NCBI RefSeq assembly: GCF_009914755.1
Contig: NC_060934.1
Source: the human T2T-CHM13v2.0 reference genome, Homo sapiens
Reading direction: 5' to 3' (one strand)
DNA: 64,000 nt
In this document: positions 26,223 to 56,382 of the stretch, piece by piece
Layout of the letters: each line of letters begins with the position of its first letter
How positions within the stretch are numbered: the first letter of the stretch is position 1
Notes under the pieces: generated by a model
Database searches by the model: none
What the model was told of the DNA's origin: nothing
The model's input: only the letters and a program-made list of their open reading frames with translations
Made by a program: the position numbers and the translations under genes

Positions 26223-26400
26223 CTCAGCACAGCGGACAGCGCCGCGCCCCTTGCCTGGACCCAGCCGCCCGCCCGCCCCCGGCCCACCTGAGCCCGGGCC
26301 CGCGGCGCCCGCATCAGCACTGCGGACAGCGCCCCGGGCCCCAGCTCGCCGCCACCGCCGCCGCCCACCTGCTCCCGGGGTCAGCACCGCGGAGACCCCC
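26223..26400 (+). promoter_or_regulatory. Three RE1/NRSE (REST)-like elements
   Basis: CTCAGCACAGCGGACAGCGCC (26223-26243), ATCAGCACTGCGGACAGCGCC (26313-26333) and GTCAGCACCGCGGAGACCCCC (26380-26400), compared with the RE1 consensus TTCAGCACCnnGGACAGcGCC. Confidence 0.85.
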
Positions 26401-26440
26401 CTCGCCCGGCCCCGCGACAGCCTCCGAGCGCCCCCGGATC

Positions 26441-26452
26441 ATGGCCACCGAG
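26441..26452 (+). CDS. GOLGA7B: GOLGA7B coding exon 1 (MATE)
   Basis: ATG in strong Kozak context (atcATGG) at the 3' end of the CpG island, followed by donor GAG|gtaggg. Joins in frame (phase 0) to exon 2. Confidence 0.95.
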
Positions 26453-29400
26453 GTAGGGGCGAGCGCCCCACCCGCAGGCAGTGCCCGATTGCCGCGGGAC
26501 CAAATGCCCTAGGGGTGGGCTGGGCAGGAGTGGGAGGCGGGAGTTGGGGGTGGGATGGGGTGATTCCCCAGGTCAGGTCTGGAGGGAGGAGGTAGGGGCT
26601 TAGTGAGGGCTCATCTCCCCCTTGCGTGTCAATCTTCCCCTCGCCCCACCTGAGCCCCCAAGCTGTCCGCGACACTTGTTGGCATTAGCGCCAGGGTTGC
26701 TTCAGGGCCCCAGGCTGGGGTTTCCCCTTCCCTGGACTTCACAAGTCCTGAAACCGCTTTCCTAGAGGGTTGGAGACGCGTGTGTGTGCGTGTGTGAGGG
26801 GAGGGAAGGCGGCTGTCCGCTGTTGCTATGCAGTCAGCTTCTGAACCCAAAAGCTTGGCTAAGGGATGACAGACTTACCTCTACATCCGCATTTCCTTTG
26901 CGGGAGGGAGGGGACAAAGACATCCTCAGGCTGAGAACCCAAATGGTTGGTCTCCACTTTTGCATATCACCCTTCTTGCTTTTTTACCCCATTCGAGTTT
27001 TTTTTTTTTTTTTGTCCCAGGGTGTCCAGATTTCCCCTCCATCTGATGGGAGTTTCTGCCTTCTTCAAGGTGCACTGATAGGTGTGTCACCTTCAAGCAC
27101 TTGAAGGCTGAACCACGGGGCCTGTTAGCTAAGGGCAGAATCTTGGTATAATGCTTGAGGTCGAGGATTCCCCCCTCTACCCCTAGGGATTGCCCTTTCC
27201 CCCCTCATTTCAGGAGGGAGATTGGGCTCTTTATGTTCCCACTTTATACATGATAAAGGTGATGTGTGGAAAACGAAAGGACTAATTTGCTACTCCACAC
27301 AGCATGTCAGCAGCAGAGCGGAAAGTTTTTGCCTTTGAATTTTTGGAGCGAAACTCAGGACATCAGGGTCTCCCCAGTTCTGATGTTGACTTCCTTTGTG
27401 GTGTCTCCCCATTTCCAATCCAGCTGGCATACACTGGGGGAGAGCAGAGGCCTGTGAATGATTCAATGCAGTGCTTCTGGGCATCCTGGTGAGCAGTGTG
27501 ACATTAATACCAAGTGTGGCTGTTGTTATTCCACTCAAGTTTCCACCACAGAACAAGGTGCTGTTGCTTGGCATTGCTTGGCATTCTGACAAGGCACAAG
27601 GTTAGCTAGGCGGAGAGTTGCCCCTCAGGACTTGGTGTGAGGGCAAGCCCTGGGCAGACCCTGGGAGCTTGGTTTCTAGAGTAGAGGAATGCAGAGTACT
27701 CACAAAGCACCAAAGACATGGAGGACAGCAGGAAGAACAAAGGGAGAAACCAAGGAGTTGGTTACCTTCCAGATAGGGCTGCCAGACTGCAGCAGAGGCT
27801 GCTGTGTTGGACAGAAAAGGGGAACTTCAGCTACATGGGCATGGCTGGGCCAGCAGCGTGGGCAGAGAAGGCAGCTGCCTCTGCGATGTGATCTGACAGA
27901 TTCCAACAGGCCCATCTGTCCCAGGATGTCTGCCATGGCCCACAGATTCCAACCAGCAGGCTTCTATCTCTATGTCAAGACAGCGTTTCCAGGAGGCTGC
28001 TATGAGACATGTGTGACTCTCCCCTGGGAGGGGCTCTGCTCATAACGCCTCTGAAAATATTGCGCTTTCCTGTGTACAAAGCACTATCGCATGAGTGATC
28101 TCTTTCAAGCCTCAGAGCAGCCCTATGAAGTGGGTAAGGATGGTGTTATTATGCCCAATTAACAGATGAGACAACTAAGGTTCAGAAACTTGCCTGGTCC
28201 CTGTGAAGGAGCCAAAGAAGGCATCATTATCCCATTTTACAGATGATGGAACTGAAGTGCTGAGACTTATTCAGGAAAATATGGCTAAAAGGTGGCAGGG
28301 ATGGGATAAGAACTTGAGTCTTCTGCCTCTTTGGCCAGTGCTTTTTTTTCCTGCATCCAATTAGCCTATTGTGTCACCTGATAGAGAGGAGGGCCCTCCA
28401 GGTCTTGATGTGAAGCTTTGGTGGAGAGAGGGATGCAAAGGAAGTCATGAAGGGCTGGAGTGTGGGGACTCAGGCCCCCTGCTTGGCCTGGCTGGGTTGG
28501 TTTGAGGGCAGAGGGACAGAGGAAAGTCCCGGAGTGATGGGGAGCTGAGGACAAACATTCCTCACTTCACAATTTGGCCTTGGGTGGACTCTGATGGCAG
28601 AACTGAGGCAGGAAGCCTTAGCTCTGCCAGGGCACAGGACCTGCACGTATTCTGGGTTGTGGGGTGAGTCATTCTCCCAAGGCTGTTTTTACTGTTAGAA
28701 TTGAGTTGAGATTACCAGGATAAACTTGTTGGGAGAGGGAAAACATCGCTTTAAGTTCCCATGATTATTCTGTTAGGATTCTCAATAGGAACTCCTCAGC
28801 TCTAGGAGAAGCTGTATTGAGAGAAGGAGAGAGGGAGAGGAAGGGGGTGGGGAGAGGGACAGAGAGGGAGGGGTGAGGGAGAGGGAAGAAATTCATGGGT
28901 GGAAACTGGGTCTTTTCTGTTCCCTAATTTCTGTTTAGGAGTTAGCATTAGGGGAGAGGTGTCTGTAAGGAACTCAGAGGAGGGATGGAGCCTCCTGAGT
29001 GATACACTGACCTCATTTGGAGAGCTGCAATGAGCCCATTTTCTGAGCAGCAAACCTCTGTGAATGTGTGTCACTGGGAGCAGGGTCTGCCCTGGGAAAT
29101 AGTCCAGATGGCCAAGGACAACTGGGAAGTGCCTGGCTGGGAGGGGCTTCTCCAAGTGGTGGGGTTTGGTCTCTAAGAGATTTTTAAATGCATCCAAGTA
29201 GCGTTATTCAAGCAGGGTGTTTGGAGGTTTGATCTTTGAGGCATGGAATTAATGATGAGTAGACAACTGGGTCAGGCTTGAGCACTGGTACAGGCTGAGA
29301 AGAAGGGAGGTCTTGTGGCTGGTGTTTTATCCTTAGGCCTGACCTGGCTGTCTGTGACTCATGATCCTCACTCCTCCTTCACACCCCAGCCAGGAAGCAG

Positions 29401-30037
29401 AGTGCTGGCATCAGCGGAACCTCCTAATTCTCGATGCCTCACATGCATCCTATGGAATGAGATGGTTTTTAATGAGGATGAAGATGGCGCCAGGGGGGCA
29501 CTCCTGTTGGACTTGGGCAGACTGGACCAGGAGCTCATTTGCACTCTAGAGCTTGTTCCTCTGCACCCCAGCTAGTTGACTGTCAGGTGAACAGGAGCCA
29601 AATGTGTGACCTGTGGTACCCACTCTCCAGGCAGACTCCCCCTCCTTCTCATACTGCAGTTTGAAAATTGGTACCCATGGGTCTCACCACTGATTTTCTT
29701 CCTTATGAAATGCTTCTCGGCCCTGTCTTCACTCTGCTGCCAGTGAGCCAGGGGTGGCAATGGGAGAGAGGGGCAGGGTTGAGGAAGGTGAGAAGTGGAG
29801 AGAGGCTCAGGTCTCTGGGTCAGTTAAGAACCCCCTGGGAGACACCCAGGGGAAACACAGAAACTGCAGCTTCAGAGAGAGTTGTGCACATATTTTGATA
29901 TCCTCTGGTAGGATTTCAGAGCATCACGGATCTCTGCTGAAAACCCCACCAGCTTTCTGAAAACTTAGTAGCTGGCCAGTGGCCTGGAGCCTGGCTTAGC
30001 TCTTGCCCAAGGGGCCCCAGCCATGGGATTCTTTATT

Positions 30038-31270: not shown

Positions 31271-31332
31271 CTAGAGACACACGCCTTCAGGACAGCACAC
31301 AAATATGTGTGTACACATGTGTGCATTCAGGC

Positions 31333-33498: not shown

Positions 33499-33543
<45 letters not shown>

Positions 33544-36506: not shown

Positions 36507-36796
<290 letters not shown>

Positions 36797-40406: not shown

Positions 40407-41169
40407 GTATCCTTCTGGGCTATTCTGTGTTGAGGGCACAGGACTGCTAACCAGTAGAGATCCTGGTGAGGCTGCCAGGAAACGAGGCCACCTTAGGGGC
40501 CTCCACTCAGGTTTTCCCAGGATTCCCCACATCAGTGGTCCTCAGCCCTCCTCCACCACCCTAAGTTATTGGAGGCTTTGTGAGTTTCAGGATTTGCACT
40601 TGTTGGGCTGCATGTAATCAGTGCTTAGAATATGCCAGCTATCATGTGAAGTGCTTTGAAAATACGAATTCATGTACTTCTCATAACAATCTTACCAGGT
40701 GGGTTGCTCTGATTATTCCCAGCAACCTGCTTAGAGTCGTGCAGCTGGTGAATGTGGGAGCCAGGAATTGCACCCAGGCTCACCCTTAACTACAAAGACC
40801 CCTCCAGGAATATGCAAATCACCACATTCATTTACAGGTCCACAGTCTCATGCAATCCTCATGGAATCTCCCGTGGCAGGTCGCATTGTCCTCCTTTCAC
40901 AGATGAGAGACATGAGGTCTAGAATGATGTGACTACCCCAAGGTCTCAGTCCTGGTGAGAGGCTGGACGGGGGTGGGGCGTGGTTCTGCTGACTTTATCT
41001 CCACTTGGAATAGTGTGATCTGGGTGTGCACAAATCCCTCCCCCCGGGCAGCAGCAACACGAGTAGAATTGCTAAAAAATAAGGTTTACTGGAAAACTGA
41101 GGAGAAACAGAGTCAAAAAACCACAAACACCCAGAATCACGTGTTGACAAAGCCCAGTGAGAGGCACTT

Positions 41170-41366
41170 GTTTTTATTGAGCCTTTACTATGTGCCAGGT
41201 TTTGTGCCAAGTGTCTTACATACATTTAATCTAATCTCCACACTAACCCCAAGATTCTATTCTTAATCCCCATTTTGCAGATGCGATAATGGATGGCTAA
41301 CAAGTTAAGTGACTGGTGTAAGGTCACATAGCTTTGTGAGTTCCTGAATCAGGATTTGAACTCAGG
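41170..41366 (-). mobile_element. MIR SINE in the GOLGA7B U12 intron / CRTAC1-A 3'UTR
   Basis: tttattgagc..tactatgtgccagg...cccattttgcagatg...gttaagtgact..taaggtcacatagc...ggatttgaactcagg. Many further MIR and L2 fragments occur across the window and are not listed. Confidence 0.8.
41173..41178 (-). terminator. CRTAC1: PolyA signal of CRTAC1-A
   Basis: First minus-strand AATAAA after the exon-A stop (about 500 nt 3'UTR), located at the end of a MIR. Confidence 0.75.
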
Positions 41367-41684
41367 ACACTAAAGTCCTCATACTTCCTGTGCAGTGACA
41401 CCACCTCCCTGGGCACATCTGTGTCCTAAGATATGGTCATTAGACCCACTGGAATGTAAGCGCCATCAGGGCAGCGACCCTGTCTGCTGTGATCACAGCT
41501 ATGTGCCCAGCACAGGGCCTGGCCTTACGAGTCTCCCTAATTGTTAGCTAAGTAATGTGCATGGATGGGCTTGGGGAGGGTCTAGCTCCCAGGCCTTTAC
41601 ATCCCTACTGTCTAGGCAGCAGCACAAGCCCACTTTCCCACTCCCCTGCTGGACTCCATCCGCTGGTTCATGTCCCACCCCTGC

Positions 41685-41851
41685 TCAGCAGCTGGGCTCG
41701 CAGCTCTCCTTAACCACCGACCCCAGATTGAGATCTCCATCTACGAGGACCGGTGCAGCAGTGGCAGCTCCAGCAGCGGCAGCAGCAGCGGCAGTGGCAG
41801 CAGCAGCGGTGGGGGTGGTGGGGCGGGGGCCCGGTGACTGGCCGAGAGTCC
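41685..41851 (-). CDS. CRTAC1: CRTAC1 alternative last exon A ([55 protein letters not shown]), secreted cartilage isoform
   Basis: Acceptor ctccctacag|, phase-1 compatible, 55 aa then TGA. It is the 3' part of track ORF 41685..41984 and matches the CRTAC1 C-terminus as I recall it. Confidence 0.93.
41727..41837 (+). CDS. GOLGA7B: GOLGA7B coding exon 5 ([10 protein letters not shown] + Ser/Gly-rich tail, TGA)
   Basis: Acceptor ccccag| preceded by the U12 branch site TCCTTAAC. 36 codons plus TGA. Spliced total 4+42+51+34+36 = 167 aa. Confidence 0.95.
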
Positions 41852-42642
41852 CTGTAGGGAGGTGTATGGCCGGAGTGAGGGCCTTGCAGACCTGCGGCGG
41901 CTGCGCTACCAGAGCACCCGCTTCTGAGTCATTCTTTGGGCTCACCCTGCTGCCCGGGGTGGGAGGGAGGGTGACGGGCCTCATATTTCCTGTGGGCCAT
42001 CAACCTATGCCCCCTGTCCCTCACCCCCGTCTGGATCAGTCCATTTCCTGACCTGGGGGCTTTTCCTTCCCGATGGGGCTGGTCTGGGCCACACAGAGAC
42101 AGATCTTCCTAGGAAGGCTGGGGTGGGGAGAACACAACCTAGGCGGCCCCTCTCTTCCACAGCCCCTCTCCCAACCCTGCGAGGGGGGCCGAGGCCTACC
42201 ACATAGAGGACTCCCACACTGCATGACCCCTCATCCCAAACCCATATCCACCAGGACTCTTTCCCTTGGGCCCTGCGTCCCGTGGCTGTCTCCCAGTATC
42301 TGTTCCTTCTCATGCCCCTGCAGGGCCCCGGCCTGTCTATGATCCTGCCTCCACCAAATTCAAGGTGTGGGGAGACGGGTGCCGTGGTTGGGAGCTGTTC
42401 AGCGCACTCCTGACCTCTTCTAGACCTATGGCTTTCCTGTCCTGCATTCAGAGCTAGAGGCCAGCTCGGCCTTGCGAGAAGCATCCAACTTTGAGACTTT
42501 GCAGGCTGCCAGGTGCTGGTTGGGGGGCACAGAGCCTGGGGCTCTGGGAGGTAATATGGGGGTCTGGGAAACTCCGTGAAGAGACATAGCCATGCGGGGC
42601 CTGAATCTCCTGAACTACAGCCAGTTTCCTGAGATTAGAACC

Positions 42643-42985
42643 TGTGTGTATGCACATGTGAATGTATGTGTGAGTGCACATGTGTGTAAGTGCAGTGTGC
42701 GTAAATGTGTGAGTCTGCGTGTGTTAGCATGCCTGTATGTGAGCGCGTGTGTGAGCGCATGTGTGTGCACCAGTGCACAAGTGTATGAATGTGGACACAT
42801 TTATAAGCACACCTGTGTGTGTCTGAGTACATGTGCACACACGTGTGCACAAATGTGCATTTATATGAGTGTGAGTGCATGCATGTGCATGAACATGTGT
42901 GCACAAGCATGTGTGTATGAGTGTTCATGTGTATGAGTGTGTGTGTATGCAGGTGAGTGCATGTGTGTGTGAGTGTGTTTGTGTG
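42643..42985. repeat. Degenerate (TG/CA)-rich alternating purine-pyrimidine tract in the GOLGA7B 3'UTR
   Basis: About 340 bp of tgtgtgtatgcacatgtg-type sequence. Confidence 0.9.
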
Positions 42986-43860
42986 TTCCCCTTGGCTGCC
43001 AGGCCAACGACTGCTTCTCTGCATCCTGCTGTCTTCGCTACCTGAGGGTCTGTGACTTCTTCCCTGTGTGGGTCCAGCCTGACCCCCTGTAAGTAAATGT
43101 CCAAAAGCCCCTTGCCCCTCCCCTAGGGCTACCAGGGAACATACTCTACTGCATATGTTCTAGTGGAAGAGAAGCCGGGGTTCTAGGAAAGAAGAGCCAA
43201 ACTTTGGTGGCCTTTGGTGCCCCCTCTCAGCTCCCCATGACAAGACAACGGGGCTGCAGACACTGTGTGTTCAGCCTGCCCAGGGGCTGGGGCTCTTTAA
43301 GGCTTTGTAGGTGAGGTTTCCATGGACCTTCAAAGGTGCCAGCAGCCTGCAGGGGAAAGGCAAACTCCCTCCTTGCAAGGAAAGGAGATGTCCAGCCAAT
43401 GATGCCCGGCTTCTGAGGCCCAGAGGAGCAGGTGGGATGGGAGCAGCCCCTGGGGCTGGTGTCCCGAAGATGAAATGAAGGGGGCTGCCTATCTCAGTTG
43501 GCGGGAGGTGTTAGAAGTGGATGTGCAAGACCAGCCACTGGAGGTAGCTCTCTGGAGTCAAAGAGAGGCCTGCTTTTCTACCAGACATGGGAGCAGCATG
43601 TAGGATACAAGGGCCTACCCAGAGACCAGAGAGAGTCAGCCTAGTCCTTGCAGCCTCAGGAAGTCCTCGGCCCAAGTGAGTCCTGGTCCAAGGATCCCCC
43701 TGGAGAGCCGCAGTTCAGTGGGCTCCACCGCAGCCCCTGGCCACGGCCTATGCCCTCCCTGGGCCCCTGTGGGGCTGGGCATTGTGTCTGACCTGTGCAT
43801 CTCCCATGGGAGGGCTGGGCACAGGCAGTGCTATGGCCTTTTTTTTTTTTTTCTTTTTCC

Positions 43861-43866
43861 AATAAA
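43861..43866 (+). terminator. GOLGA7B: Candidate proximal polyA signal of GOLGA7B
   Basis: AATAAA after a T-rich upstream run, with GT-rich sequence downstream. Confidence 0.5.
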
Positions 43867-46800
43867 AGAACTTGCCCAGCGTGAAGCTCTGTGATGCTTT
43901 CTCTGCCCCGTGACGATGGAGGGTCAGTTCTATGCTCCAGGACCACATGAGGGGATACTCAGCTGCCTGAACTGGACCTGACATGGGGAGCAGGATGAAC
44001 TCTGTCTTCTTGGAGCTTGCAGTCTACTGAAGAGGCAGACACCTCAGCATCTCTAATCTGGAATCTTTGGGGCACTTGTAGCCTTGGGTGGGGGAACAGG
44101 TTGGACTGAAAGCGAGGCCAAAAGTAATCAATTAATGATATCAATAAATCCTCATTTCTTGAGCTCTTCCCCTGGGTTGGGTCCTGTTGGGAGCTGGATC
44201 ACACAGGTCACTCAGTACTGAAGATGAGAAAGTAGCTGGATGATCACTTCTCGGCCTTTTGGCCAAGATCAAATATGGAGAAAGTAGCTGGATGTTGGAA
44301 CCTAGCAGAGTTGTGTCTTGAATTTTATAATTTATTGAGCACCTACTATGTGCCAGATACTTTGCTGAAACCATATGTTAGAGCTGGCAGGGGATTTAAA
44401 GATCACTTGAATCCTGTCACAGAGGTCCAGAGAGGGTGGGTGACTTGCCCTAGGCCACACAGCTGGTTGATGATAACAGGGCCCAAGCTTGGAACCCAGG
44501 TCTCCTGACTCAGTGCCCACTCTGTTACCACAGGGATGGCACCCAGATGGGAAGCTGCCTGAGGCTGCAGGGAGGCTGGGATCACAAACTCAGGCCTGTT
44601 CCCAGAGAGGGGCTCATCAGACTGTGGGGACAACGGCTCCAGCCTCTTAGGTGGGGGCTGGGCAGTCCCCTCTGGGTGGTTCTCATGTTTGTTGTCACTG
44701 CCGCTAAGGGCTGCAGTGAGCTGTGTGCAGCCTGGACTCACTCCCTCTGCTGGAACCTGGGCCGTGTGTGGGTTGCCACAAGTGAGCGTGTTCTCTAATA
44801 TGAGGGCAGGTTCATTCTGTTTTGGGATAGGAAGTTTGTTCTACCCCGAGGCCAGATTTGAATCCAAACTCAGCTCTTCTAGAGATGAGGTCCTGGGGAG
44901 GGGGTGAGGATTTACTAAACGGGTAAAACCAAATCTGGGTGCTTATCTGACTGAGAGGCATTCAACCCTTCCATTTTCAAATGGTAATCATAATAATAAT
45001 AGTAGCTGACGTTTATTTAGCACTTCCTATGTGCCAGGCACTAGGCTAAGACTCTACATAATTAGTCATTCAATTCTCACAGCAACCCTCTATGGCATGG
45101 ATTCTTATTTCCCATTTTACATATGGGGAAACTGAGGCTCATGGACGTTAAGTAACTGGGAAATTGCAGATCTTGGCTTTGAATCTAGGCAATCTGACTC
45201 CAAACTGCAAGGAAGAAGACAGATCCAGCCTCAGAGGCCGCTTAACAGCTTGAGGGCCTCAGCCGTCCTGGGATTAGGATCAGGCAGATTCCCAGGGAAG
45301 GACTTGGAGCCATGCCTGGGTTTTGAGGCCGGGCTGGCACCTCCACTTCCAGGGCATCACGGGAGGGTGCATGGGCTGTGCTCGCAGGCATGCGGGACCC
45401 AGAGGCAGCCCGGTGAAGGGTAGTGGGGGACTCGACTCACTGTGGGCCTGGGGAGGTGTGGTTTCTCTCTGCTGGCTTAGTTACAGGTGGTGGCCTGTCT
45501 CTCCGGGGTCTGGCTGTAGCCATGTCCCTGCACCCACCTTGCCAGCCAGGGACAGGCCCCATCAAGACCCAGGAGCAGCTCCAGCCTCAGCCAGACTGTC
45601 CCCGAGGTCCCAAGTGAGGCCCCAGCCACTCAGGCATGCCTCAGGAAGCTCCTGCTGCACATGCTCCTCTCCCTGCGCCAGCACCCTGCTGTCTGGCTTC
45701 CTTCCTTTGGCCACAGGGCGGGTGTGTGTGAAACCACAGGGTTTACAGAAGCTCGAGGTGCCACTGAGTGGCAGGATTATGCACTGCACTCGGGGAATCA
45801 AAGGTGGAGACAGAAAGAACTATGGCTGTTGTGACACGTCCCCCACGGCTCCCCGGTTGGCAGCCACTGCCACCCGCAGGGACTTTTCTGTGGCTTCCAG
45901 AGGTGTGGGGCAAAGGTGGAGTCTGGTGACTTTCTCCCTAGGGCCAGCCCCTGGGCTGTCGAGCCTGGGAAACTCCACATCCCTCTCCACACCTCTAGAA
46001 GGACTCACAATGAGGGGGGCCCAGACAGGAGGCATCACCACCTGGTTTGGGCTTTACCATTCACCCAGGGATAAGGCAAGGCAAACACCACTCCACATCA
46101 GATCTGAATTTGAGCTCTGGCTTCATGACACTGACACATGAAGACTCTTGGAGCCTCAGATTCCCCAGTTGTTAAATAGGGAGACTAATATCTCACAGAG
46201 TTGTTTAGACCCGAGGCGTTCAACCTTGGTGGCAATGGATGTCAACTGGAAGCATGAAAAATCACCAATGCCTGATCCTATCCTCAGAGATTCTGATTTA
46301 ATTGTTTTGGGGGACAGCTTGGGCATCAGGATTTTAAAGAGTTTCCCTGGTGATTTTAATGTGAAGGTAAGGCTGAGAATCCCTGGTTTTGACAGTACCT
46401 ATAGCCTATAAGCCTTTAATACACCTCTGAAAATGCCTGAGACCTGAATAAGAAGTTTATGGTTCCACAGAAGCAGCCAGACACAAAAATGCATATGCAC
46501 CATGTGATTCCCCTTATATGAAACTGAAAGACAGGCCAAACTCGCCTTTGATTGGGAGTCAGGATCAAGATTACCCTGGGTCGGGGGTAGCGAATGGATG
46601 GGGACCTGGGGGGCTTCTGGGAGCTCAGGATGTTCTGTTTCTTGATCAGAGTGCCAGTTACACGGGGTGCTCACTTCATGAGAATTCACTGAGCTGTATA
46701 CTTAAGAGCTGTGTATTTGTCTGTACTGGTGATATATTTCAATAAAATTCACCAGAAAAGCCTGTTGGCTACAAAATAGGAAAAGAAAGGACACACTTGA

Positions 46801-47652
46801 AATTAACGTTTTGTTAAATATCTGGAAATGTAACACATATGCCAAACAGACAACTGCAACTCTATGTTACGTGTGTGTGTGTGTGTGTGTGTGAAAATGT
46901 AATGTCTGCTCTGCTGTGGGTGGGCCCTCTAAAAGGGAAGGTCCCTGATGCCTAAGAAAATCTGAAAACAGCCCAGGTTCACACCAGGAGTTCTTAACCT
47001 CGACCCGACTGCATTCAGGTGCATATTATGTGCCGTTATCTGAGGAGAGCATCTACAGCTTTCAGCAGATTCTCAAAGGGGTATGCAACCCCCTAAAAAG
47101 GTTAAGAACAATTGGTTTTGAGGAGTCAGTAAGAAACTGGCCATGAATGTGCTTGGCATGAAAGAGATGCTTGGTAATGTCGGTTTCTTTCCTTCCTTTC
47201 AGAGCCCAGCCTTCGGAGGTTTCCGCATGAGCCTTCTCGGGCGACTTCTAGGAGGATTTATTCCCCTGGCAGTGCCAAGGGCAGCCTGCACCAAGCTCAC
47301 AACTCTTCCTCCAAGAGGATGTTCAAAGGGCCTGTCATTTCAGCATCTGCTGGACAGCAGAACTTCGCATGCAGGATCCTGGAGCTGCGTCGGGTTTTGA
47401 ATCAGGGACAATGGAGGAAGTGGGAAACTGTGAAGAGAGTCAGAGGGCTGTGCCAGCTGCCCCCTTTCCCACCCCCAGCAATTCACTTAACTTTCCTGAG
47501 TCTCACCTTTGTCATTATGAGAATGTGTATATTTATAAATAATCATCTGTTTCTCCAATGTAAGATATTGTTATTGCAGAAGTGATACTAGGACCTCGTT
47601 ATACGATGGCCTCATGATGTAGATTTATAGCAGGCTTCAGATTCTGGCATAG

Positions 47653-47696
47653 AATAAACAGATATTTATCCAAGGGTTCACTGATTCCCGAATAAA
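47653..47696 (+). terminator. GOLGA7B: Candidate distal polyA signals of GOLGA7B (about 5.8 kb 3'UTR)
   Basis: AATAAA at 47653-47658 and 47691-47696, at the end of an AT-rich, non-repetitive UTR-like block (47510-47670). Confidence 0.55.
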
Positions 47697-50600
47697 TGCC
47701 AGGAACATTCATGTACATTATTATTCCATTTAATTCTCGAACACTGGGGTGTTGAAATCTTATTTTACAGATGAGGAAACTGACGTTCTAGGTGGTTAGG
47801 TAGCTTGACAAGGGCTAGTAAGTGTCAGAGCAAAGACTTGAACCTAAGTCTCTGACTCCAGATCCCACTCTCACTCTGCCACAAGAGTGAGACGTGGGAG
47901 AAGAGAGAGTGTTCTACCTGGATTGACTCATAAAGATAGAAGACAGATTCCAGACCAGAGAGAAACTCGTGGGCAAATGCATCCCCAGAAAAATTAGCTT
48001 TGCAGGGGCATGAAGGTACTAGTTATTTTGGAGTAATTCAAGTTATCGATTTCTGTAATGGAAAAGTGATTGGGAACCAGCTATCACCTGAGAACAGTGC
48101 TGAGTGAGGCCCCAAGAAGGGGGCAATGTTACACACAAGCTTACACACAGCTTACAAGACCTCAGAGATTGCGAGGGTCCTTTTCCCTGCTGCCCACAAT
48201 TAATCAGTACACTTCTCAAGGGCAGGGAGCCTGTCTTACTCACTCCCCACCCCCACCCCCACCTCCCCCTATCCTGAGTGCTTGTTTCAGGGCCTGGCCC
48301 TGGCCAGGTGAATGGAAGATGCTGCCCATCTCAGGTTGGCAGGAAGAGGCAGGCCTATACAGATGTGTCATCTGCAGACCCCTAGGGCAAGGTGCCACTG
48401 AGAAGCAGCTCAGTACCATGCAGATAGGCAGTGGTCACTGAAGGATACAATTCACCTGCAAGTGGTCACCTTATAACTCAATTAAAGGATGGATGCAGTG
48501 ACCCCAGGCTACCCCCTGAGCTGGGCAGCAGCTCTCAGTGATGTTGCCCTAGCTGTGACATTGTGGCTCTGCTCATGACCTCTACCTATCCTGGGAGAGG
48601 AGGGGAGGAAGCGTGTGTCCCACCCCAGTCGGCCCTGCCTGACACTCCCCAAACACCATTTTGAGGTGGGGAAAATCCTTCTGGTGCTGAATTCTTTACC
48701 TGAGAGATCTGGACCTCAGGCCCTAGAGAGTGAATTACTGTGAGTGAATCACTGGCTGGATGGCTGGCTGGCTGGATAAGTGGATGGATACAGAGAAGAT
48801 GGGTATAGAGAGATGACTGATAGATCAGAGATGAGCGAGAGGCCTGCCTGGCTTGAGATGGATGCTCGCAGACCCTGGAGAGGCAGGTGAATGGATGGGT
48901 ACCGATCGCCCCTGGGCTCCCCAGTGCAGATCTAAATATAGGGCTGGAGCTCTTCAAAGGGAAGATGCCGTGCTATCCCAGTCCCCAGATGAACTCCGCA
49001 TTTGTAACTCTGAGTGATGGATGTGTCTTGTTGGGAAGAATCCTTATAGGTCTAATATTGCCCCAGCTAATGGCTTATGGATTGTTTTAAAGTCAGGCAT
49101 TGCTGGAAGTGAAACCAGGAGGTTAAACGTCCTGGCACAGATTTTATGACAATATCTGCATTTCATCAGTCAGGCACTGCAGCAAGTACCTTATAGGCTC
49201 GAGGAAGCCTCACAACAACTCTATGAGGATTTTATCACTGCCTCTATTTTGTGGATGAAGAAACTGAGGCTCAGAGATGAAATAACTTCTTAAGGCCACT
49301 TCCAAATGCCTGGGTGGAGGGTCTGGATTTCAAGTCCATTTGATCCCAGAGTTTCAGTGTGAAGGGAAAATTTTAAGGACAGTTGAAAGGAAGGGAGAGG
49401 GGAGGGCCATAGGATTTGTGCACAGCTCTAAGAACGAACATGGCATTTTGGCACATGTGAGACACCTTCTGCAGTGGGAGGAGGCACTGAGACTTTCCAA
49501 TGACTGGGTGACACGAGGGCAGCCCCAGGCTTCCTTCTCCCTCTTTCTTCTGTGTCAGCCTTCGAGGGCTCTAAACCTTGAGTCTGGGGATCTGAACTGC
49601 AGAGAGGGTGTATGTTTGGCTCACTTTCCTTCCTTTGGCCTAAACTTGTCCTTCTGCCATGGTCTCCATAAGCAGTTGGGGAAAGAGGATGTGCTTTTTT
49701 CCTGTTCCAGGAGCTCTACAGCCAGGTCTGGGGTGGAGGGAGGGAAGTTAGCCCTTAGATTTGTGGGGAGGGTGCATTAAATGACTCTAGGGGATGAGAT
49801 CCTTCCTGGCTGCTCTGGGGCTGGCCATGAAGAAGGAGAACCAGCTAGCTTTAGGGGAATTATTCTGGCCCCAGACTGCTTTCCTGCTGGCAGGCAGGCT
49901 GAGGGCATGAGGTTCTGGGCGGGACGTTCTGGGAACGGGTGATACAGATTCTCCATCTGCCGCACCCTTCTCCTGACCCTGCCTCCCTCCTCACAGCTGA
50001 ACAGGCTCCTCTCTGCACTCGGGACCCCCATTCAGATCTGTATTTAATCCCAGCTGAGTTCTAAGGACCAAGTATGGTTCTTCTGTTACTTGATGGGCAC
50101 GTATCCTGACTCAGTTTCCATGTCAGCAAAGTGGGAAGGATAAGCCCTGCCTCTCTTATTCCTGATCTTGTTCATACACTTGGGCTTCTGGAATACCTGG
50201 AGCTTTCTGGAGAAGGGTGCTGGGAGCAGCCTGGAGCTGAGCTCTTTTGAGGAGCAGCCGGCAACCCGGCAGGAAAAAGGACCAGACGGGGGTGCAGATG
50301 CCTTGGGAAAGTTGCAGCTCCTTTTTGGGCCTTGGTTTCCACGTCTGAAAAGGAGGGAAGAGGACTAGATGACTTCTCAGGTGTTCCTGGATTTAAAGCT
50401 CTAGGATTCTGTGATTGTTGAGGGCCAAATTCCCAGGCCAGTTCACTAGCTCCTGGTGACCTCTGCTCTGTATGGCCCAGTCCATGCCATGCCCGCCTAG
50501 CTCAGTTCACTTTGTTTTATGACTATTCTTTCTGGGAATGGCACTGCATGAGAATTCAGCAGAACATAGCACAGCCCAGGCCCCAGGAAGGTTGGCTCTG

Positions 50601-51948
50601 CACCTTATGGCCATTTGCCATCTTTTTCTGGTGAATCTGTCAGTTCTCCAGAGGTGGCCCCGTCCTGCCCATCTCTCCCACCGCAGGTGTCCTGGGTGGC
50701 AGCAGGGTGTACCGGGAAGCACAGGAGCTTTGGCACTGAACGGGCCCGGGGCTCCATCCTGAACGTGGCTACTTAATAATAGTATCTCTAATTTGTTGGG
50801 GGCTTTCTATGTGCCAGGCACCATGTCAAGTCTAATATAATAACTCTGTGAGGTATTATCCCCATCTTGCAGATGGGAAAACTGAGGTTCAAAGACACCT
50901 TACCTACTTTAAGTCTTTGCCCAATGCCTCTTTCTCAGGGAGCCCCCCTGCCCCCGCAGCTATTTAAAATGGCATTCCACCTCCATCCGGGCCTTCCCGG
51001 ATGGCCTTGATGTTACTCTTCTTCAGCCCTCCATAGCACGTCTCATGCTCCAACATGCTACAGACTTTCCTTATTCTGGGTATTGTTTAGTGCCTGCCAC
51101 GTCTTGCTAGGGCAGGGACCTTTGCCAGTGTTGTTCACAGATGTATATCCCAAGCCACTAGAACAACATCCAGCACACAGTAGGCGTTCAGTCACTGTAC
51201 ATCACATGAACAACTGGTTAAATAACTTCCCCAGTGTCAGTTACCTAGAGATCGCACAGCATAAGGCTTAAGAACCCAGGCTTTGGAGCTAGTCATGAGG
51301 TTGAATTACAGCTCTTGCCACTTTAGCTAGCTATGTGACTTTGTGTAATTTACTGTTTCTGAGTCTCAGTTTCTCTGGTAATAAAATAGACTCATAACAT
51401 TTATATTCTGGGATGGGTGTGAGTATTCATGGAGACATGGATGTAAAGTTCTTGGCATATGGCAGGCATTGCATAAATGTTAGCTGCTTTCCTGGAGGAT
51501 GTTTTTCTTCTCTCTTGCGTCTCATTTTCCCTCTGGTGGCCTATTTTTTGACCACTTCACTGTCAACAGTAGTTCCTTAGAGGACAAGCCACCGTGGGAG
51601 AGGCTGGCGTCATCTGTGGTGTTAACCAGCCCATGTTCTCTTGCCTTCCTTCCAGGATATGCCTGTTGCTACAGACACAACAGCAACTTCTGGCATGTTC
51701 CTGACCCCTGTGGCTGGGGTTCTGGCCTCAGAGAAGACTGGCCCTGGGCACAGGGAGGCAGGGAGGGGCTCGGTTTGCCTTCTGGGCTGGAAGTCTGGGT
51801 GGAGGTTCAGCCTGGAATCTGTTGGAAGAACTTGGCTGGCTCCCTGCAAAAATGAAGTGCTCATCTTCCTGTCTACACGGGGCTCTTGGAGTCTGGAGCG
51901 GAGTTCCTGCTTCGGCCGAGGTCCAGTGGCACTGGCCTGGGTGTGATA

Positions 51949-52034
51949 CCCAGACCCTGGGAGGGGGCCATAGCAGCCAGAGTGACACATAATCAAACTC
52001 CTGGCCCTCAGAATGGCACCTTCCCAGAGTAGGG
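51949..52034 (-). ncRNA. MIR3085: pre-miR-3085 hairpin in the CRTAC1 last intron
   Basis: The minus strand folds into a hairpin: CUCUGGGAAGGUGCCAU pairs with AUGGCCCCCUCCCAGGG. The 5p arm AGGUGCCAUUCUGAGGGCCAGGAGU (52021-51997) and 3p arm UCUGGCUGCUAUGGCCCCCUC (51981-51961) match miR-3085 as I recall it. Confidence 0.88.
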
Positions 52035-53466
52035 TTGGCAACCGTGTAGATGCTTGAAGAGGCCTAGTGGATGGTTTACCATTCTGCCTCAGTGAAGGTT
52101 GGCTGAGCCCGCCTGGCGAGGGGACTCTCGACATTAGCAAGCACTGCCACCTCTTCCTGCAGACTTGAACGTGACCGTGGGGAGGACTATTTCAGATCAC
52201 TAGGCCTCCAGGGGCTCCATTTTTCCCCTCCCAATCCTGCTCTTGATCCTGGGCAGCATGAGTGACTGTGGCTTTTGCTTAAACCAATTCACCATCCCAA
52301 ATGAAGAAGGGAGTGGTAGTTGAGAGTGCCAGCTGACAGCCAGACTCCTGGGATCCAGTCCTGCCTTCGTCTGTCTGGGCTGTATGACCCTGCACAAACC
52401 ATTTAGCTTATCTGTAAACGTGGGATAATTACAATACCTTCCTCTTGAGATTATTATGAGGATTAAACGAGTTGATTATTGTAAAGAGTTTAGATTCAAC
52501 CCAGACACGCCAAGCCCACTAAATGTAAGCTATTATTGTCATTTTAAGGGGTATGTGCCTGTGAAGAGGGAGTATTCTTGAGCAGAATAAAAATGGTATT
52601 ATTCTTATTATTTCTTTTTTGTTGAAAAATGGGGAGCATTTTTGTGGCAGCACTGGCCCACCTTCCCACTGGAGTGAGTTGTGGCTGCCTGGTGCAGGCA
52701 GGTGGGGCACCAGCTCCTCCATTTGCATAATCCCTTCCGGGTCCATTTCATTACTTGACTGCCCCTAAAGGCATTTGTTATTTTTGTTACAAATTAAAGT
52801 GTAGCATAAGGCAACAAAGATGTCAGGAGCCTAGGTGGGGCTAAGGGACAGGGAAAAGACAGACTTATCTGTGTGCAGGAGGGGACGGAACGGTTTGGGC
52901 TCCCACGGGTCTCAGAGAAAGGGATTAGAAGAAAGAGGGGAATGGGAATGCTGAGCCTGGGTAGCTTGGGGGTGGCTTTGCACCCGCAAATCTGTGGCTG
53001 GTATAGCACAGACCAGTAGATGCATTGAATTTGAGGCACCTGTTCAAAAAGCCTGTACTGCTAGCTCAATGAGGAGGCTCTGTTTTTTTTTTTTTTTTTT
53101 TTTTTTGGTAAGGGGGTAGGTAATGTTGAGTGGGTTCACTATCCACCTGTCCTCTGTATCTTTCAGCCTTGTATCTCTTGCAACACAAGCATCTTGGGGG
53201 CAGGGGACTTGTCCACCTCATTAGAGGGTCTCTATCACATTCCTCATGGGAGGAACCTAGTGCTTGTCATACAGGATATTCTCAATAAATGCTTGCTGAA
53301 TGAATATGTAAATGAATGAATGCAGAGAGCTTGCTTTCTGGTATAGCAACCTGAGAATTCAGCTCAACTTTTTAGAAAGCCCCTTGGTGTCCCACTCCCA
53401 TCCCATGCACTTGGCTCCTCTATCTGGCTGGAGGGAAGGCAGCGTAGGGGTGGCAACAATGTTACC

Positions 53467-53765
53467 TTCACTTACCATTATATACCTAGAGCGTAGCTCA
53501 GTACCTGGCACATAATAGGTGCTCAACAAATATTACTTTCACTTACCATTGTATGCCTAGAGCCTAGCTCAGTACTGGGCACACAGTAGGGGCTCAACAA
53601 ATATTGCTTTCACTTACCATTGTATGCCTAGAGCCTAGCTCAGTACCTGCACATAGTAGTAGGGGATCAACACATATTACTTTTACTTACCATTGTTACC
53701 TTCATTTACCATTGTACGCCTAGAGCCTAACCAAATATTTGGCACATTGTAGGTGCTCAATCAGT
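53467..53765. repeat. About 71-bp tandem repeat (about 4 copies) derived from an L2 3' end
   Basis: The unit marker (c/t)acttaccatt recurs at 53469, 53540, 53611 and 53684. The unit contains the L2 tail cctagagcctagc.cagtacctggcaca.agtaggtgctcaa.aaata. Confidence 0.88.
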
Positions 53766-55816
53766 ATCTGTTGAACTCATGAATGAATCAAATGGAAGCC
53801 TTATCCTGGAGTCTGAGTGCTGCAGTGGTGCTCTTATCAGCTGTGGGAACTTAGAACTCCTCTTTGCAACTCACTGGACCCCACTCACCCAACAGGATCA
53901 CATGACACAGATATACCCTGTTATATAAAACTCATTGTGAAGGCATTCATGGTTATCACTTATAAGGCATCATCTGAAGTCTGCTGTCACCCTGAACCCC
54001 CTGATGTCCTTGGCAGGCCATCTCTGTAGTTGTCTTGTCCCTTATTTCTTGTGCTGTTGTGTATGGACAGTCAATGGGCTCTGTTATCTTGTCATTTACC
54101 ACTGCATTTGGAACCATTCCTCCATGGGTTTTGGGTTTTACTTATCTCACTATCTTAGATCCACTTTGTTCATTTTTTAAAAGGCAGCAGCTTCCAGAAG
54201 GACTAGGGAATAGTCTGAACAGTGACAGAGCTGCCTGTTACCCTCTGACAAGATGGTGTGGTGGGAAAGGGCTCCAGCCCTGGCCTGGGGAGCAGTGGGC
54301 TCCATGACCTTGGGCACAGTGACCTTGAACACTTCAGCTCTCTGAGCCTCATCTCTGGAGCCCTTTCAGATCTTTAGTTCTATGTCAATACACAGGAATG
54401 GGCTTTCTAGAAGTGGAATGATTTTTAAGTTGGTGTCTGCTTTTCAGGGAAATTGTAGCTGTTTTAATTTAAAAACTTTTCATTTATGCTTCTGTTCTAA
54501 GTGTAAAAACAGCACTAGCTACAAGGAATTCATATTTTGTGATTTATTAGGAGTATTACCATGATATCAGAAAATGGCAGGGGCTTTTTTTTTGTTGAAT
54601 ATGTTTTTAAAAGGGTTGCTGCATTCTTAAGTGTAATTTTATTATATCCTGGGATGACTTTTTTTCCCCATGAAGAATAGATCTATGTTTTATAACAAGC
54701 CTTCACTACTGAGGCTGGTCGTGAGCATATTCTGTGGCGTTACATCATTTCCAAAGAGTGTTCTGGCTACAGGAGCATTCTATTTTCCAAGGAGATTGCA
54801 GAGACCAAGTAGCAAGGTTCTTTCTAGAAATCAGAGTAACCTGAGATGAGCCAGGCCTATGTCCAGCCAGACATTGAGGAGTCTTAGAAAGGAAAGGCCC
54901 TTAGGGATATACCAGCCCAACTCTCTTGTCATCTACATTAGGGAAACTGAGGCACAGCATGGAGAAGTGACTTCCTGCAGGTAAAAGGCCTAGAGTACAC
55001 ACTCCATTTCTGCCCCTCACTCATCACACATCCTTCACTTGGCCCAAACCCTGGTCCCCCAAATGTGAACATTGTTGTACGCAACCAAACCACTGCTGGT
55101 GCCTGAGGGTGACACCTGCTTTGTGTTATGATCTGCTTTCAAAGCATCTCATGGTGGAAGGGCTGCTCCTAATTCAGCATTCCAATCAGTTCTACTTGCC
55201 CCAGACCCTTTTTATCATCAGTTTGGCACTAATATCTAGTAGAGAGTTTATTGGCATAATTTCTTCAGAAAAGAGGCTGGAAGGCTTAGCAAGTTCAAAT
55301 GATAACATTTTTATCAAGAGTCCCAAAGGACCACCCTTTTCCCTCCCATCACCACCACCAACACCAATAAGGCTTTCTCTAGCACAGGAAGTCAGGGGCA
55401 AAAAGCAGAAACAGCACAGGCCAAACCAGCAGGCACATGGTACATTATCGGATCAACCGGCAAGCAACCACCTGGGAGCCATCTTTGTTAAGGGCAAAAT
55501 AATGAGCTCACGAGACACTGGAGGATACAAGACTATCTTGATTCTTCTGAAGGAGTGAGGGAGACTGGATGGGGTATTGGAGACTTTCCTTTCTGTTTTC
55601 TCAGAAAACATGCAAAGAAAGTCTTCACAAACAACTAAGGTTGTGTCAGTATCGCCCAACCTTCCCTTTTCAAAGATGGCCACCCCTGTTGTCCATTCAG
55701 AGGGAGCACACAGCAGAACCTACTGGGCGTGGAGAGAGAGACAAGCAGCAGGAGAGAGATTTAGTTTTCCACAAAGGCTGTTAGTTTTGTTTTGTTTTTT
55801 CCTTTATTGATGGGAT

Positions 55817-55935
55817 TTAAAGTGCATATAACTGAAGGCAAAGTCCAAGGCCTAGAGAAAGATATGAGGCCCGAGAGAGAGGCTCAGAGATTCTAGAGGC
55901 GGCTGAAGAATACCCACCTAAAAAGGCCACTTGAG
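55817..55935 (-). CDS. CRTAC1: CRTAC1 alternative last exon B (AQVAFLGGYSSAASRISEPLSRASYLSLGLGLCLQLYAL*), brain isoform CRTAC1-B/LOTUS
   Basis: Acceptor gtttttgcag|, phase-1 compatible, 39 aa then TAA, hydrophobic C-terminus. AATAAA follows at 55808-55803. Too short for the ORF track. Confidence 0.92.
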
Positions 55936-56382
55936 CTGCAAAAACGATGCGGCGGGGAGACAGAAAATGGGAAAAAGAGAAAGGGGGTGGGGACGGGGTG
56001 GGGGTGGAGGAAGGAGTTTGGGAAGAAGAAATTACCAGTTTAGAAATTCAGCCAAAGATGAGTAGTAGGAGTTAGTTTATATCCCAGCTATGAAAATACG
56101 GGCTGACCTCAAGGTAGGAACAGTTGTTTTAGGAAAAGTAAGAAGAATGATAGCCTCAGGCCAGGACACAGCATCCCCTGGCCCTTCAGGTGATGGTAGA
56201 AGTGATGGGGCTTCTCCAAGCCTCTGTCATGGTCTTCCCTGGAGACCCAATATGGGTCAAAGGAGACTCTATCCAGCCAGGAGAAGGAAGGGGCTGGGGA
56301 CCTTGATCTGGGGCCTACCCAGAGCTCCCCAGTGGAAAGCAACATCCTTTTGCTACTGGCCTATGGCTGGGGCCCCACTCAC

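What the first reader, a model, noticed from the sequence alone, without database searches (positions are those of the whole stretch)
26223..56090. Hypothesis: a REST-gated, mutually antagonistic sense/antisense switch couples GOLGA7B to CRTAC1 A/B choice and miR-3085
Seen in sequence: (i) GOLGA7B has tandem RE1 sites; (ii) mature GOLGA7B mRNA is complementary to the CRTAC1-A acceptor and branch region (41852 upward); (iii) mature CRTAC1-A mRNA is complementary to the GOLGA7B U12 branch point and 3'ss; (iv) exon B has a PTB-type distant-branch acceptor; (v) MIR3085 lies between last exons B and A. Inference: in neurons (REST and PTBP1 low) GOLGA7B is on and occludes exon A by duplex or polymerase collision, favouring membrane CRTAC1-B. 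In chondrocytes and other non-neuronal cells GOLGA7B is repressed, exon A and miR-3085 are made, and residual GOLGA7B minor-intron splicing is blocked. This resembles THRA/NR1D1 but is reciprocal and involves the minor spliceosome. I know of no description of this circuit.
Basis: inference. Interest (0 to 1): 0.85.

Follow-up and report, generated by a model that had tools for sequence, protein, structure and literature searches.

The report
GOLGA7B–CRTAC1 tail-to-tail coding overlap

Summary
All five observations are in the sequence. (1) GOLGA7B's 5'UTR has two exact RE1-type sites and one degenerate one, far above chance. (2) GOLGA7B intron 4 is a textbook U12 GT-AG intron, already catalogued in human and mouse. 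(3) CRTAC1 exon 15A lies antisense over the end of that intron and over GOLGA7B exon 5, with a 111-nt coding-on-coding overlap. (4) Exon 15B has a 150-nt AG-free, pyrimidine-rich acceptor with CTAAC at -137. (5) mir-3085 lies between 15B and 15A. Each part is annotated or published.

The proposed circuit is inference. Published passages support REST control of GOLGA7B, its cortex-restricted expression, and a brain-B versus cartilage/lung-A pattern with a B-to-A shift in glioma. But PTBP1 and REST would co-vary with GOLGA7B. Exon A inclusion is also reported to rise across many cancers. Mouse cartilage uses only exon B with Golga7b silent. Rodent miR-3085 is made without an annotated exon A.

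New here: the A tail is not human-specific (same junction in macaque, deer, bat and seal models), and the B tail is pan-mammalian.

My reading: a THRA/NR1D1-like anatomy, with exon choice probably made at 15B. Antisense modulation is possible (about 0.2). The reciprocal U12 block is unlikely.

The parts
26224..26243 (+). RE1/NRSE-type site 1 in GOLGA7B exon 1 (5'UTR)
   Evidence: 0 mismatches to the search pattern; sequence read
26314..26333 (+). RE1/NRSE-type site 2, the second copy of a 90-nt tandem duplication
   Evidence: 0 mismatches; tandem repeat 26205-26366
26381..26400 (+). Degenerate RE1-like site 3 (left half intact)
   Evidence: 3 mismatches
40407..41726 (+). GOLGA7B intron 4, U12-type GT-AG; 5'ss box 40407-40414, branch box 41707-41714
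   Evidence: listed with the same 12-mers and length in the PMC6717393 supplement
41727..47715 (+). GOLGA7B exon 5 (CDS to 41837, then a 5.9-kb 3'UTR; first AATAAA at 43861)
   Evidence: hub annotation; translation; hexamer scan
41137..41851 (-). CRTAC1 alternative last exon 15A (CDS 41685-41851; AATAAA 41178-41173)
   Evidence: hub annotation; translation; hexamer scan
41727..41837 (.). Bidirectional coding overlap, 111 nt, with the codons of the two genes in the same register
   Evidence: frames (41847-41727 = 120, divisible by 3)
41852..41880 (-). Exon 15A acceptor region (AG-free zone 29 nt; candidate CTCAC with A at -25), inside the GOLGA7B 3'UTR 14 nt past its stop codon
   Evidence: the branch candidate was read by eye and not scored
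51948..52036 (-). mir-3085 precursor
   Evidence: Rfam RF03288, 93.6 bits
55785..55935 (-). CRTAC1 alternative last exon 15B (CDS to 55820, stop 55819-55817, AATAAA 55808-55803); the tail ends in a hydrophobic stretch
55938..56087 (-). 150-nt AG-exclusion zone and long pyrimidine tract before exon 15B; CTAAC 56075-56071
56383..56526 (-). CRTAC1 exon 14, the shared donor for 15B and 15A
   Evidence: hub annotation; sequence

Best explanation
The region is an old convergent gene pair. GOLGA7B is a neuron-restricted gene held off elsewhere by REST through two or three RE1 sites in its 5'UTR. CRTAC1 ends in one of two alternative terminal exons. The proximal exon, 15B, is conserved in all mammals. 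It gives a tail with a hydrophobic end, which the literature calls a transmembrane domain. The distal exon, 15A, is written on the antisense strand of GOLGA7B's last coding exon and of the end of its ancestral U12 intron. It gives a secreted Thr/Pro/Ala-rich tail.

I think the A/B decision is made mainly at exon 15B, which is transcribed 14 kb earlier. Its distant-branch-point, long-pyrimidine-tract acceptor and its own AATAAA are recognised in neurons. In human non-neuronal cells they are silenced, most likely by a pyrimidine-tract repressor, with PTBP1 the leading candidate. When 15B is skipped, polymerase runs on through mir-3085 to 15A. On this view the overlap with GOLGA7B is an overprinting by-product and at most a secondary modulator.

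Shown: the anatomy, the motif statistics, the conservation of both tails, and the published expression patterns. Inferred: the repressor at 15B and the ranking of causes.
For: - Exon 15B's acceptor is an outlier: AG-free zone 150 nt against 1-57 nt for the 11 other acceptors, 78% pyrimidine, 6 PTB-type motif matches in 150 nt against 0-4. Only 2 of 10,177 AG-to-AG gaps in the window are that long.
- Exons with AG-free zones of 150 nt or more numbered only 165 in the data set of PMC1431707, and long zones go with alternative splicing (passages).
- The B tail is 85-95% identical in 50 hits of 135 candidates, including 8 rodent entries, a marsupial and platypus.
- Mouse brain and cartilage both use only B (PMC4945026 passages). 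B is therefore the default exon and does not need Golga7b.
- Exon A inclusion is reported to rise broadly across cancers, not only in glioma (preprint 10.64898/2026.05.06.723198, passages). In the non-neural tissues sampled, GOLGA7B is near-silent.
- The U12 intron is shared with mouse and with GOLGA7, so it predates any circuit.
- REST control.
Against: - There is no direct evidence that PTBP1 or any other factor binds the 15B tract. In the 10 papers holding both CRTAC1 and PTBP1, no title or abstract start concerns CRTAC1 splicing; the texts were not opened.
- Neurons generally favour distal 3' ends (recalled general knowledge). Proximal 15B use in brain therefore needs a specific cause, and antisense blocking of 15A would supply one.
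- The anatomy matches THRA/NR1D1 almost point for point. Antisense RNA has been reported to inhibit the overlapped splice in that system (recalled from Munroe, Lazar and Hastings; not read here).
- The direction of the brain-to-glioma shift (exon A PSI 0.32, 0.73, 0.84) fits loss of GOLGA7B as well as it fits gain of PTBP1.
- The A junction is kept in primate, deer, bat and seal models, so the overlap has been retained for a long time.
Confidence: 0.5

Rival explanations
1. One-way antisense switch of the THRA/NR1D1 type. In human neurons, loss of REST turns on GOLGA7B. Its transcription through 41137-47715, or pairing of its RNA with nascent CRTAC1 pre-mRNA at the 15A acceptor, lowers use of 15A and so shifts output to 15B.
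For: - Every polyadenylated GOLGA7B mRNA must cover the 15A acceptor, because the first AATAAA lies 2 kb beyond it.
- The acceptor is only 14 nt from the GOLGA7B stop codon and looks weak (70% pyrimidine in the last 20 nt).
- GOLGA7B is cortex-restricted, and B is the brain form in human.
- Exon A inclusion rises from normal brain to glioma.
- The topology is the same as TRalpha2/Rev-erbalpha: proximal poly(A) form against a distal exon overlapped by a convergent coding gene, with the 3' splice site near the partner's stop codon.
- None of the 13 papers naming both genes has a title or abstract start on such a circuit. I opened 2 of them; one notes only the overlap.
Against: - The evidence is correlation only. 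REST and PTBP1 co-vary with cell type.
- Bulk normal brain still shows A at PSI 0.32 (n = 5).
- Exon A inclusion also varies across cancers outside the brain.
- Mouse uses B without Golga7b.
- 15B is transcribed about 14 kb before 15A, so it can be committed before the overlap is reached.
- GOLGA7B expression is moderate (16.7 units in cortex), so polymerase collisions should be infrequent (my inference).
Confidence: 0.2
2. As above, and in addition mature CRTAC1-A mRNA blocks the U12 branch point and 3' splice site of residual GOLGA7B pre-mRNA in non-neuronal cells, and miR-3085 output is coupled to exon A choice.
For: CRTAC1-A mRNA is complementary to 41707-41726. mir-3085 lies in the A-specific intron. 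miR-3085 and CRTAC1 change together in chondrocyte culture models.
Against: - GOLGA7B is already REST-silenced where A is made, so the second arm has little to act on.
- Mature mRNA is exported, so it is a poor nuclear antisense agent (general knowledge).
- The U12 intron is ancestral: it is present in mouse Golga7b and in GOLGA7.
- Rodent miR-3085 is expressed although it lies 3' of the annotated gene.
- SOX9 induces CRTAC1 more than miR-3085, and IL-1/NF-kB induces the miRNA.
- No intron-4 retention data for GOLGA7B turned up in the PMC6717393 supplements: hits were in 3 of the 8 files held (list, expression, coordinates).
Confidence: 0.04
3. Choice driven by the cleavage and polyadenylation machinery. 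The A/B ratio is set by how efficiently the 15B poly(A) site is used in each cell type, through cleavage-factor levels or U1 telescripting. Neither PTB nor antisense plays a specific part.
For: 15B is a complete terminal exon with a canonical AATAAA 18 nt before its annotated end. CRTAC1 appears in a glioma APA survey, with its distal-site usage index linked to survival (PMC7900014 passages). Two 3'UTR lengths were seen for mouse exon 15B.
Against: This does not explain the 150-nt AG-free pyrimidine tract at the 15B acceptor. The APA index measures 3'UTR tandem sites, not the 15A/15B choice.
Confidence: 0.15

Closest known systems
THRA (TRalpha1/TRalpha2) - NR1D1 (Rev-erbalpha) antisense overlap
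   Same: Both are convergent protein-coding genes. One gene has a proximal 3' end form and a distal alternative last exon, and that distal exon overlaps the partner's last exon. The overlap includes bidirectional coding sequence, and the distal 3' splice site lies close to the partner's stop codon: about 60 bp there (PMC4569393 passages) and 14 nt here. The overlap is retained across mammalian orders.
   Different: - Here the proximal form is a separate terminal exon with its own acceptor, not a poly(A) site inside the upstream exon.
- The partner's overlapped intron is U12-type.
- The partner is REST-gated and neuron-specific rather than circadian.
- An miRNA sits between the two ends.
- The G-rich run lies on the partner's strand, not in the overlapped exon's own RNA.
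- No experiment shows antisense regulation at this locus.
Distant-branch-point exons with long AG-exclusion zones (Gooding et al. 2006, PMC1431707), many of them PTB-regulated
   Same: AG-free zone of 150 nt, a strong branch-type CTAAC at its 5' end, a pyrimidine-rich interval, and an alternatively used exon.
   Different: The exon is a terminal exon, not a cassette. Branch-point use and PTB binding are untested.
REST/RE1-silenced neuronal genes
   Same: Two full-length RE1-type motifs within about 350 nt of the transcription start, cortex-restricted expression, and derepression in REST-deleted cells.
   Different: REST occupancy was not examined here. The consensus used is recalled.
Intronic miRNA with host gene (mir-3085 in CRTAC1)
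   Same: [quoted passage not shown]
   Different: It is intronic only for the A isoform and lies 3.7 kb downstream of the B poly(A) site. In rodents it is annotated outside the gene, and its regulation is partly separate.

Membership tests
THRA/NR1D1-type cis-antisense control of alternative 3' exon choice | Convergent genes whose mature mRNAs overlap at their 3' ends | tested here: met
   Exon-exon overlap 41727-41851 (125 nt). CRTAC1 exon 15A lies wholly inside the GOLGA7B gene (hub annotation).
THRA/NR1D1-type cis-antisense control of alternative 3' exon choice | The overlapped exon is the distal one of two alternative 3' ends, and its 3' splice site lies inside the partner's mRNA | tested here: met
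   15B (55935-55785, own AATAAA) is proximal and 15A is distal. The 15A acceptor at 41851/41852 is 14 nt past the GOLGA7B stop codon.
THRA/NR1D1-type cis-antisense control of alternative 3' exon choice | Bidirectional coding overlap | tested here: met
   111 nt, 41727-41837, both frames open and in the same codon register.
THRA/NR1D1-type cis-antisense control of alternative 3' exon choice | Partner transcription or RNA changes the isoform ratio | not testable with these tools
   Only correlative passages are available. None of the 13 papers naming both genes has a title or abstract start on this; 2 were opened.
U12-type (minor) intron | 5' splice site /GTATCCTT, and a TCCTTAAC branch box 10-15 nt from the 3' splice site | tested here: met
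   40407-40414, and 41707-41714 with 12 nt to the AG. The same 12-mers, with scores 97.07 and 88.75, are in the PMC6717393 supplement.
U12-type (minor) intron | Removal depends on the minor spliceosome | not testable with these tools
   Catalogue listing only.
RE1/NRSE (REST site) | Match to the roughly 21-bp bipartite motif | tested here: met
   Two sites with 0 mismatches and one with 3. Expected 0.12 per window; 0 of 100 shuffles reach 3. The consensus is recalled.
RE1/NRSE (REST site) | REST occupancy, and derepression on REST loss | tested here: inconclusive
   One preprint passage lists GOLGA7B among genes derepressed in REST-deleted HCT8 cells. No ChIP data were seen.
Distant-branch-point / PTB-regulated exon | AG-exclusion zone of at least 100-150 nt, with a branch-type sequence at its 5' end | tested here: met
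   150 nt, CTAAC with the A at -137. Class definition from PMC1431707.
Distant-branch-point / PTB-regulated exon | PTB binding and PTB-dependent repression | not testable with these tools
   6 PTB-type motif matches in 150 nt. In the 10 papers holding CRTAC1 and PTBP1, no title or abstract start concerns CRTAC1 splicing; texts not opened.
mir-3085 (Rfam RF03288) | Covariance-model score above the gathering threshold | tested here: met
   93.6 bits against 80.6, full length 1-89.

The most novel reading that the evidence does not exclude
This locus is a second, independently evolved THRA/NR1D1-type switch. A REST-controlled, neuron-only convergent gene (GOLGA7B) transcribes through the acceptor of the distal last exon of CRTAC1. 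Acting in cis, it tips CRTAC1 from the secreted matrix form (A) to the membrane, Nogo-receptor-antagonist form (B) in human neurons. The overlap, including codon-aligned bidirectional coding, would have been kept since before primates, bats, carnivores and ruminants diverged, and lost or disused in rodents. Loss of GOLGA7B would then contribute to the B-to-A shift seen in glioma.
Probability: 0.2. Interest if true: 0.7.

Novelty: new member of a known kind. Interest (0 to 1): 0.4.

Why it matters
CRTAC1-B (LOTUS) is a Nogo-receptor antagonist studied for axon regrowth. CRTAC1-A is a cartilage, lung and plasma matrix protein used as an osteoarthritis and lung-injury marker, and it is now reported as a glioma restraint. 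What sets the A/B ratio is unknown.

If a neighbouring neuron-specific gene sets it by antisense interference, that would be only the second well-defined mammalian case of coding-gene antisense control of 3' exon choice. It would also give a handle, through antisense oligonucleotides or CRISPRi at GOLGA7B, to shift the isoforms.

That matters for the choice of animal models: the rodent is the odd one out.

Tried and rejected
- Steck et al. 2007, the primary A/B paper, is not held. Its content is known here only through citing passages.
- A paper search with min_terms 2 returned minor-intron papers that do not mention GOLGA7B, so the search was wasted. GOLGA7B + U12 gave 0 main-text hits; the listing was found in a supplement instead.
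- GOLGA7B + REST terms gave the same single preprint twice.
- The LUAD paper names GOLGA7B only inside long gene lists, with no direction of change, so it says nothing on co-expression with CRTAC1.
- PMC2585104 mentions CRTAC1 only in a supplementary-figure legend.
- I first took alignment A1 to show that the 15A acceptor AG is conserved in the unnamed contigs. I rejected this: the rows are protein translations, and Ala-Gly does not fix an AG (correction note).
- I suspected that the exon 15A poly(A) signal comes from an antisense MIR SINE. A self-BLAST of 41137-41430 against the window found only one 24-nt match, and no repeat library is available. This remains recall only.
- A canonical four-run G-quadruplex in the G-rich stretch 41808-41834 (+) is not met when the sequence is read by eye (three runs of three or more G).
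- Vertebrate genomes are not searchable with these tools. The state of the exon 15A acceptor in rodents could not be examined.
- bioRxiv supplements and all figures were not visible. The pan-cancer PSI panel and the isoform plots of the glioma preprint could bear on the claims.
Full report
**What was checked.** The window is human chr10 (hub annotation). GOLGA7B is on the + strand and CRTAC1 on the - strand.

**RE1 sites.** Exon 1 of GOLGA7B (5'UTR) carries TCAGCAC-N3-GGACAGCGCC twice without mismatch, at 26224-26243 and 26314-26333. A third, degenerate copy with 3 mismatches (good left half only) lies at 26381-26400. The window holds 3 matches against 0.12 expected, and 0 of 100 dinucleotide shuffles reach 3. 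No other match with 3 or fewer mismatches exists in the 64 kb. Sites 1 and 2 are the two copies of a 90-nt tandem duplication (26205-26366, 1.8 copies, 78% matches). The RE1 consensus is recalled, not taken from a call.

Three findings from print fit REST control:
- A preprint passage lists GOLGA7B among genes derepressed in REST-deleted HCT8 cells (10.1101/2025.10.21.682573).
- A supplement table gives GOLGA7B 16.7 in cerebral cortex against 0.09-1.05 in seven other human tissues (PMC6717393 supplement file 2).
- The only paper found for GOLGA7B with REST terms is that same preprint.

**U12 intron.** Intron 4 (40407-41726) begins with GTATCCTT and has TCCTTAAC at 41707-41714, 12 nt before the AG. 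The 8-mer alone is not rare (2 in the window, 1.65 expected). Its place at the annotated donor together with the branch box makes the case. The minor-intron catalogue of Olthof et al. lists exactly these 12-mers and the 1320-nt length for human GOLGA7B. It also lists a matching intron in mouse Golga7b and one in the paralogue GOLGA7 (PMC6717393 supplements). The intron is therefore known and ancestral.

**The overlap.** CRTAC1 exon 15A runs from 41851 to 41137 on the - strand.
- It covers the U12 branch box, the 3' splice site and 125 nt of GOLGA7B exon 5.
- GOLGA7B exon 5 (to 47715) covers the 15A acceptor and 5864 nt of the 14,531-nt intron upstream of it.
- The acceptor is 14 nt past the GOLGA7B stop codon.
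- The first AATAAA in the GOLGA7B 3'UTR is at 43861, so any polyadenylated GOLGA7B mRNA spans the acceptor.
- The two coding regions overlap for 111 nt (41727-41837) in the same codon register. GOLGA7B's Ser/Gly tail is the mirror image of CRTAC1-A's Ala/Thr/Pro tail.
- The U12 branch box is antisense to the Val-Lys-Glu codons of the A tail.

Points (ii) and (iii) of the finding are true, but they follow directly from the annotated overlap.

**Exon 15B.** Its acceptor (55935, - strand) is preceded by a 150-nt AG-free zone (55938-56087). The zone is 78% pyrimidine over 120 nt and has CTAAC with its A at -137. The 11 other annotated acceptors in the window have AG-free zones of 1-57 nt. Only 2 of 10,177 AG-to-AG gaps in the window reach 150 nt. 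Gooding et al. found only 165 exons with zones of 150 nt or more, and long zones were linked to alternative splicing and to known PTB-regulated exons (PMC1431707, outline and passages). The exon encodes a 38-residue tail ending in a hydrophobic stretch and has an AATAAA 18 nt before its annotated end. In the 10 papers holding both CRTAC1 and PTBP1, no title or abstract start concerns CRTAC1 splicing; I did not open them.

**mir-3085.** Rfam RF03288 scores 93.6 bits against a gathering score of 80.6, at 51948-52036 on the - strand. It is the only family found in 25000-57000. Two papers place it in the final CRTAC1 intron in man but 3' of the annotated gene in mouse and rat, and describe it as cartilage-selective. 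They also report that SOX9 induces CRTAC1 more than the miRNA (PMC4769094 and PMC7736321, passages).

**Conservation (new here).** I searched with the A tail (54 aa) among longer proteins. This gave 20 hits with E at or below 0.01 among 2062 candidates, 7 of them named.
- Of the 6 named hits I fetched, 5 join the CRTAC1 body to the tail at the human junction: macaque, fallow deer, two Myotis bats and elephant seal. The seal entry is a cluster of 636 members.
- The sixth, a plover model, carries the tail after a different junction, at E = 1e-3.
- No rodent is among the 7 named hits.
- The tail is alike down to the part that is antisense to GOLGA7B's conserved coding sequence. It diverges in the part that lies in the U12 intron.

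I then searched with the B tail. Resent with two more window codons, it gave 50 hits among 135 candidates at 85-95% identity.
- These include 8 rodent entries, carnivores, bats, ruminants, a marsupial and platypus.
- Fallow deer and two Myotis species appear in both lists.

So B is pan-mammalian. A is at least boreoeutherian in gene models, contrary to the glioma preprint's remark that A is human-specific. Two caveats apply. Most of these are automated models that may lean on the human annotation. And conservation of the overlapped stretch is expected from GOLGA7B alone.

Thirteen further hits are reading frames on unnamed contigs. They show that the DNA upstream of the acceptor is conserved, but they cannot show the AG itself (correction).

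**Expression evidence from print.**
- Human B is described as brain-only and A as cartilage and lung. Mouse 3'RACE from brain and from articular cartilage gave only the B-type exon (PMC4945026, passages).
- A preprint reports median exon A PSI of 0.321 in normal brain (n = 5), 0.726 in lower-grade glioma (n = 516) and 0.843 in glioblastoma (n = 152). It also reports raised A inclusion 'broadly across cancers' (10.64898/2026.05.06.723198, passages only, figures not seen).
- Of the 13 papers naming both genes, I opened 2. One remarks that the genes overlap; the other only lists GOLGA7B among many genes. No title or abstract start among the 13 proposes regulation.

**Weighing.** It matches THRA/NR1D1 closely: a proximal form against a distal exon overlapped by a convergent coding gene, bidirectional coding, and a 3' splice site near the partner's stop codon (PMC4569393, passages).

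The causal claims have no data, and four findings speak against parts of them:
- B is used in mouse cartilage with Golga7b silent.
- The A/B ratio moves in cancers outside the brain.
- miR-3085 is made in rodents without an annotated exon A.
- The U12 intron is ancestral.

15B is transcribed 14 kb before 15A and has a rare, regulatory-looking acceptor. The simplest account is therefore that the choice is made at 15B, with confidence 0.5. A one-way antisense contribution from GOLGA7B remains open at 0.2. The full reciprocal circuit is unlikely at 0.04. A purely poly(A)-site-driven choice stands at 0.15.

**Verdict.** The parts are known. The locus as a THRA/NR1D1-like overlap has not been described in the papers searched. 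Interest is moderate: a good, cheap-to-test hypothesis, but not evidence.

Noticed in passing
41727-41837: The two coding regions overlap in the same codon register. GOLGA7B's Ser/Gly-rich C-terminal tail and CRTAC1-A's Ala/Thr/Pro-rich tail are therefore mirror images. The A tail looks like an overprinted reading of GOLGA7B's last coding exon.
   Followed up: partly
41685-41726: The last 13 codons and the stop of CRTAC1-A lie in the 3' end of GOLGA7B's U12 intron, and the branch box is antisense to Val-Lys-Glu. This part of the tail differs between the primate, deer, bat and seal models, while the part over GOLGA7B coding sequence is kept.
   Followed up: partly
26205-26366: RE1 sites 1 and 2 belong to a 90-nt tandem duplication (1.8 copies, 78% matches). 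The doubled site therefore arose by duplication of a 5'UTR segment.
   Followed up: partly
window 41685-41851 versus proteins P0005, P0007, P0014, P0017, P0020: A 2026 preprint calls CRTAC1-A human-specific. Yet gene models of macaque, fallow deer, two bats and a seal carry the same exon 14-15A junction and tail. Rodents appear only in the B-tail list.
   Followed up: yes
42825-42990 (- strand): This is the only other AG-free stretch of 150 nt or more in the window (166 nt, 54% pyrimidine). It lies in the CRTAC1 last intron and the GOLGA7B 3'UTR, about 1 kb upstream of exon 15A. It is unexplained.
   Followed up: no
41808-41834 (+ strand): A G-rich run lies on the GOLGA7B sense strand just before its stop codon, which makes it C-rich in CRTAC1-A RNA just after the 15A acceptor. 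It recalls the G-rich element near the overlapped splice site in THRA/NR1D1, but it is on the opposite strand and has only three runs of three or more G.
   Followed up: no
41137-41430: From memory, the 3'UTR of exon 15A and its AATAAA (41178-41173, - strand) resemble an antisense MIR SINE core. A self-BLAST within the window gave only one 24-nt match, and no repeat library was available.
   Followed up: partly
proteins P0009 and P0021 (unnamed contigs; alignment A1): In these two rows the antisense reading frame runs from GOLGA7B exon 5 straight into the antisense of exon 4, without intron 4. The contigs therefore hold a spliced (cDNA-like or retrocopied) non-human GOLGA7B sequence (compared).
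   Followed up: no
51961-52461: The hub annotation lists a RefSeq enhancer element that overlaps the mir-3085 hairpin. Together with the reported NF-kB/IL-1 induction of the miRNA, this hints at regulation separate from the CRTAC1 promoter.
   Followed up: no
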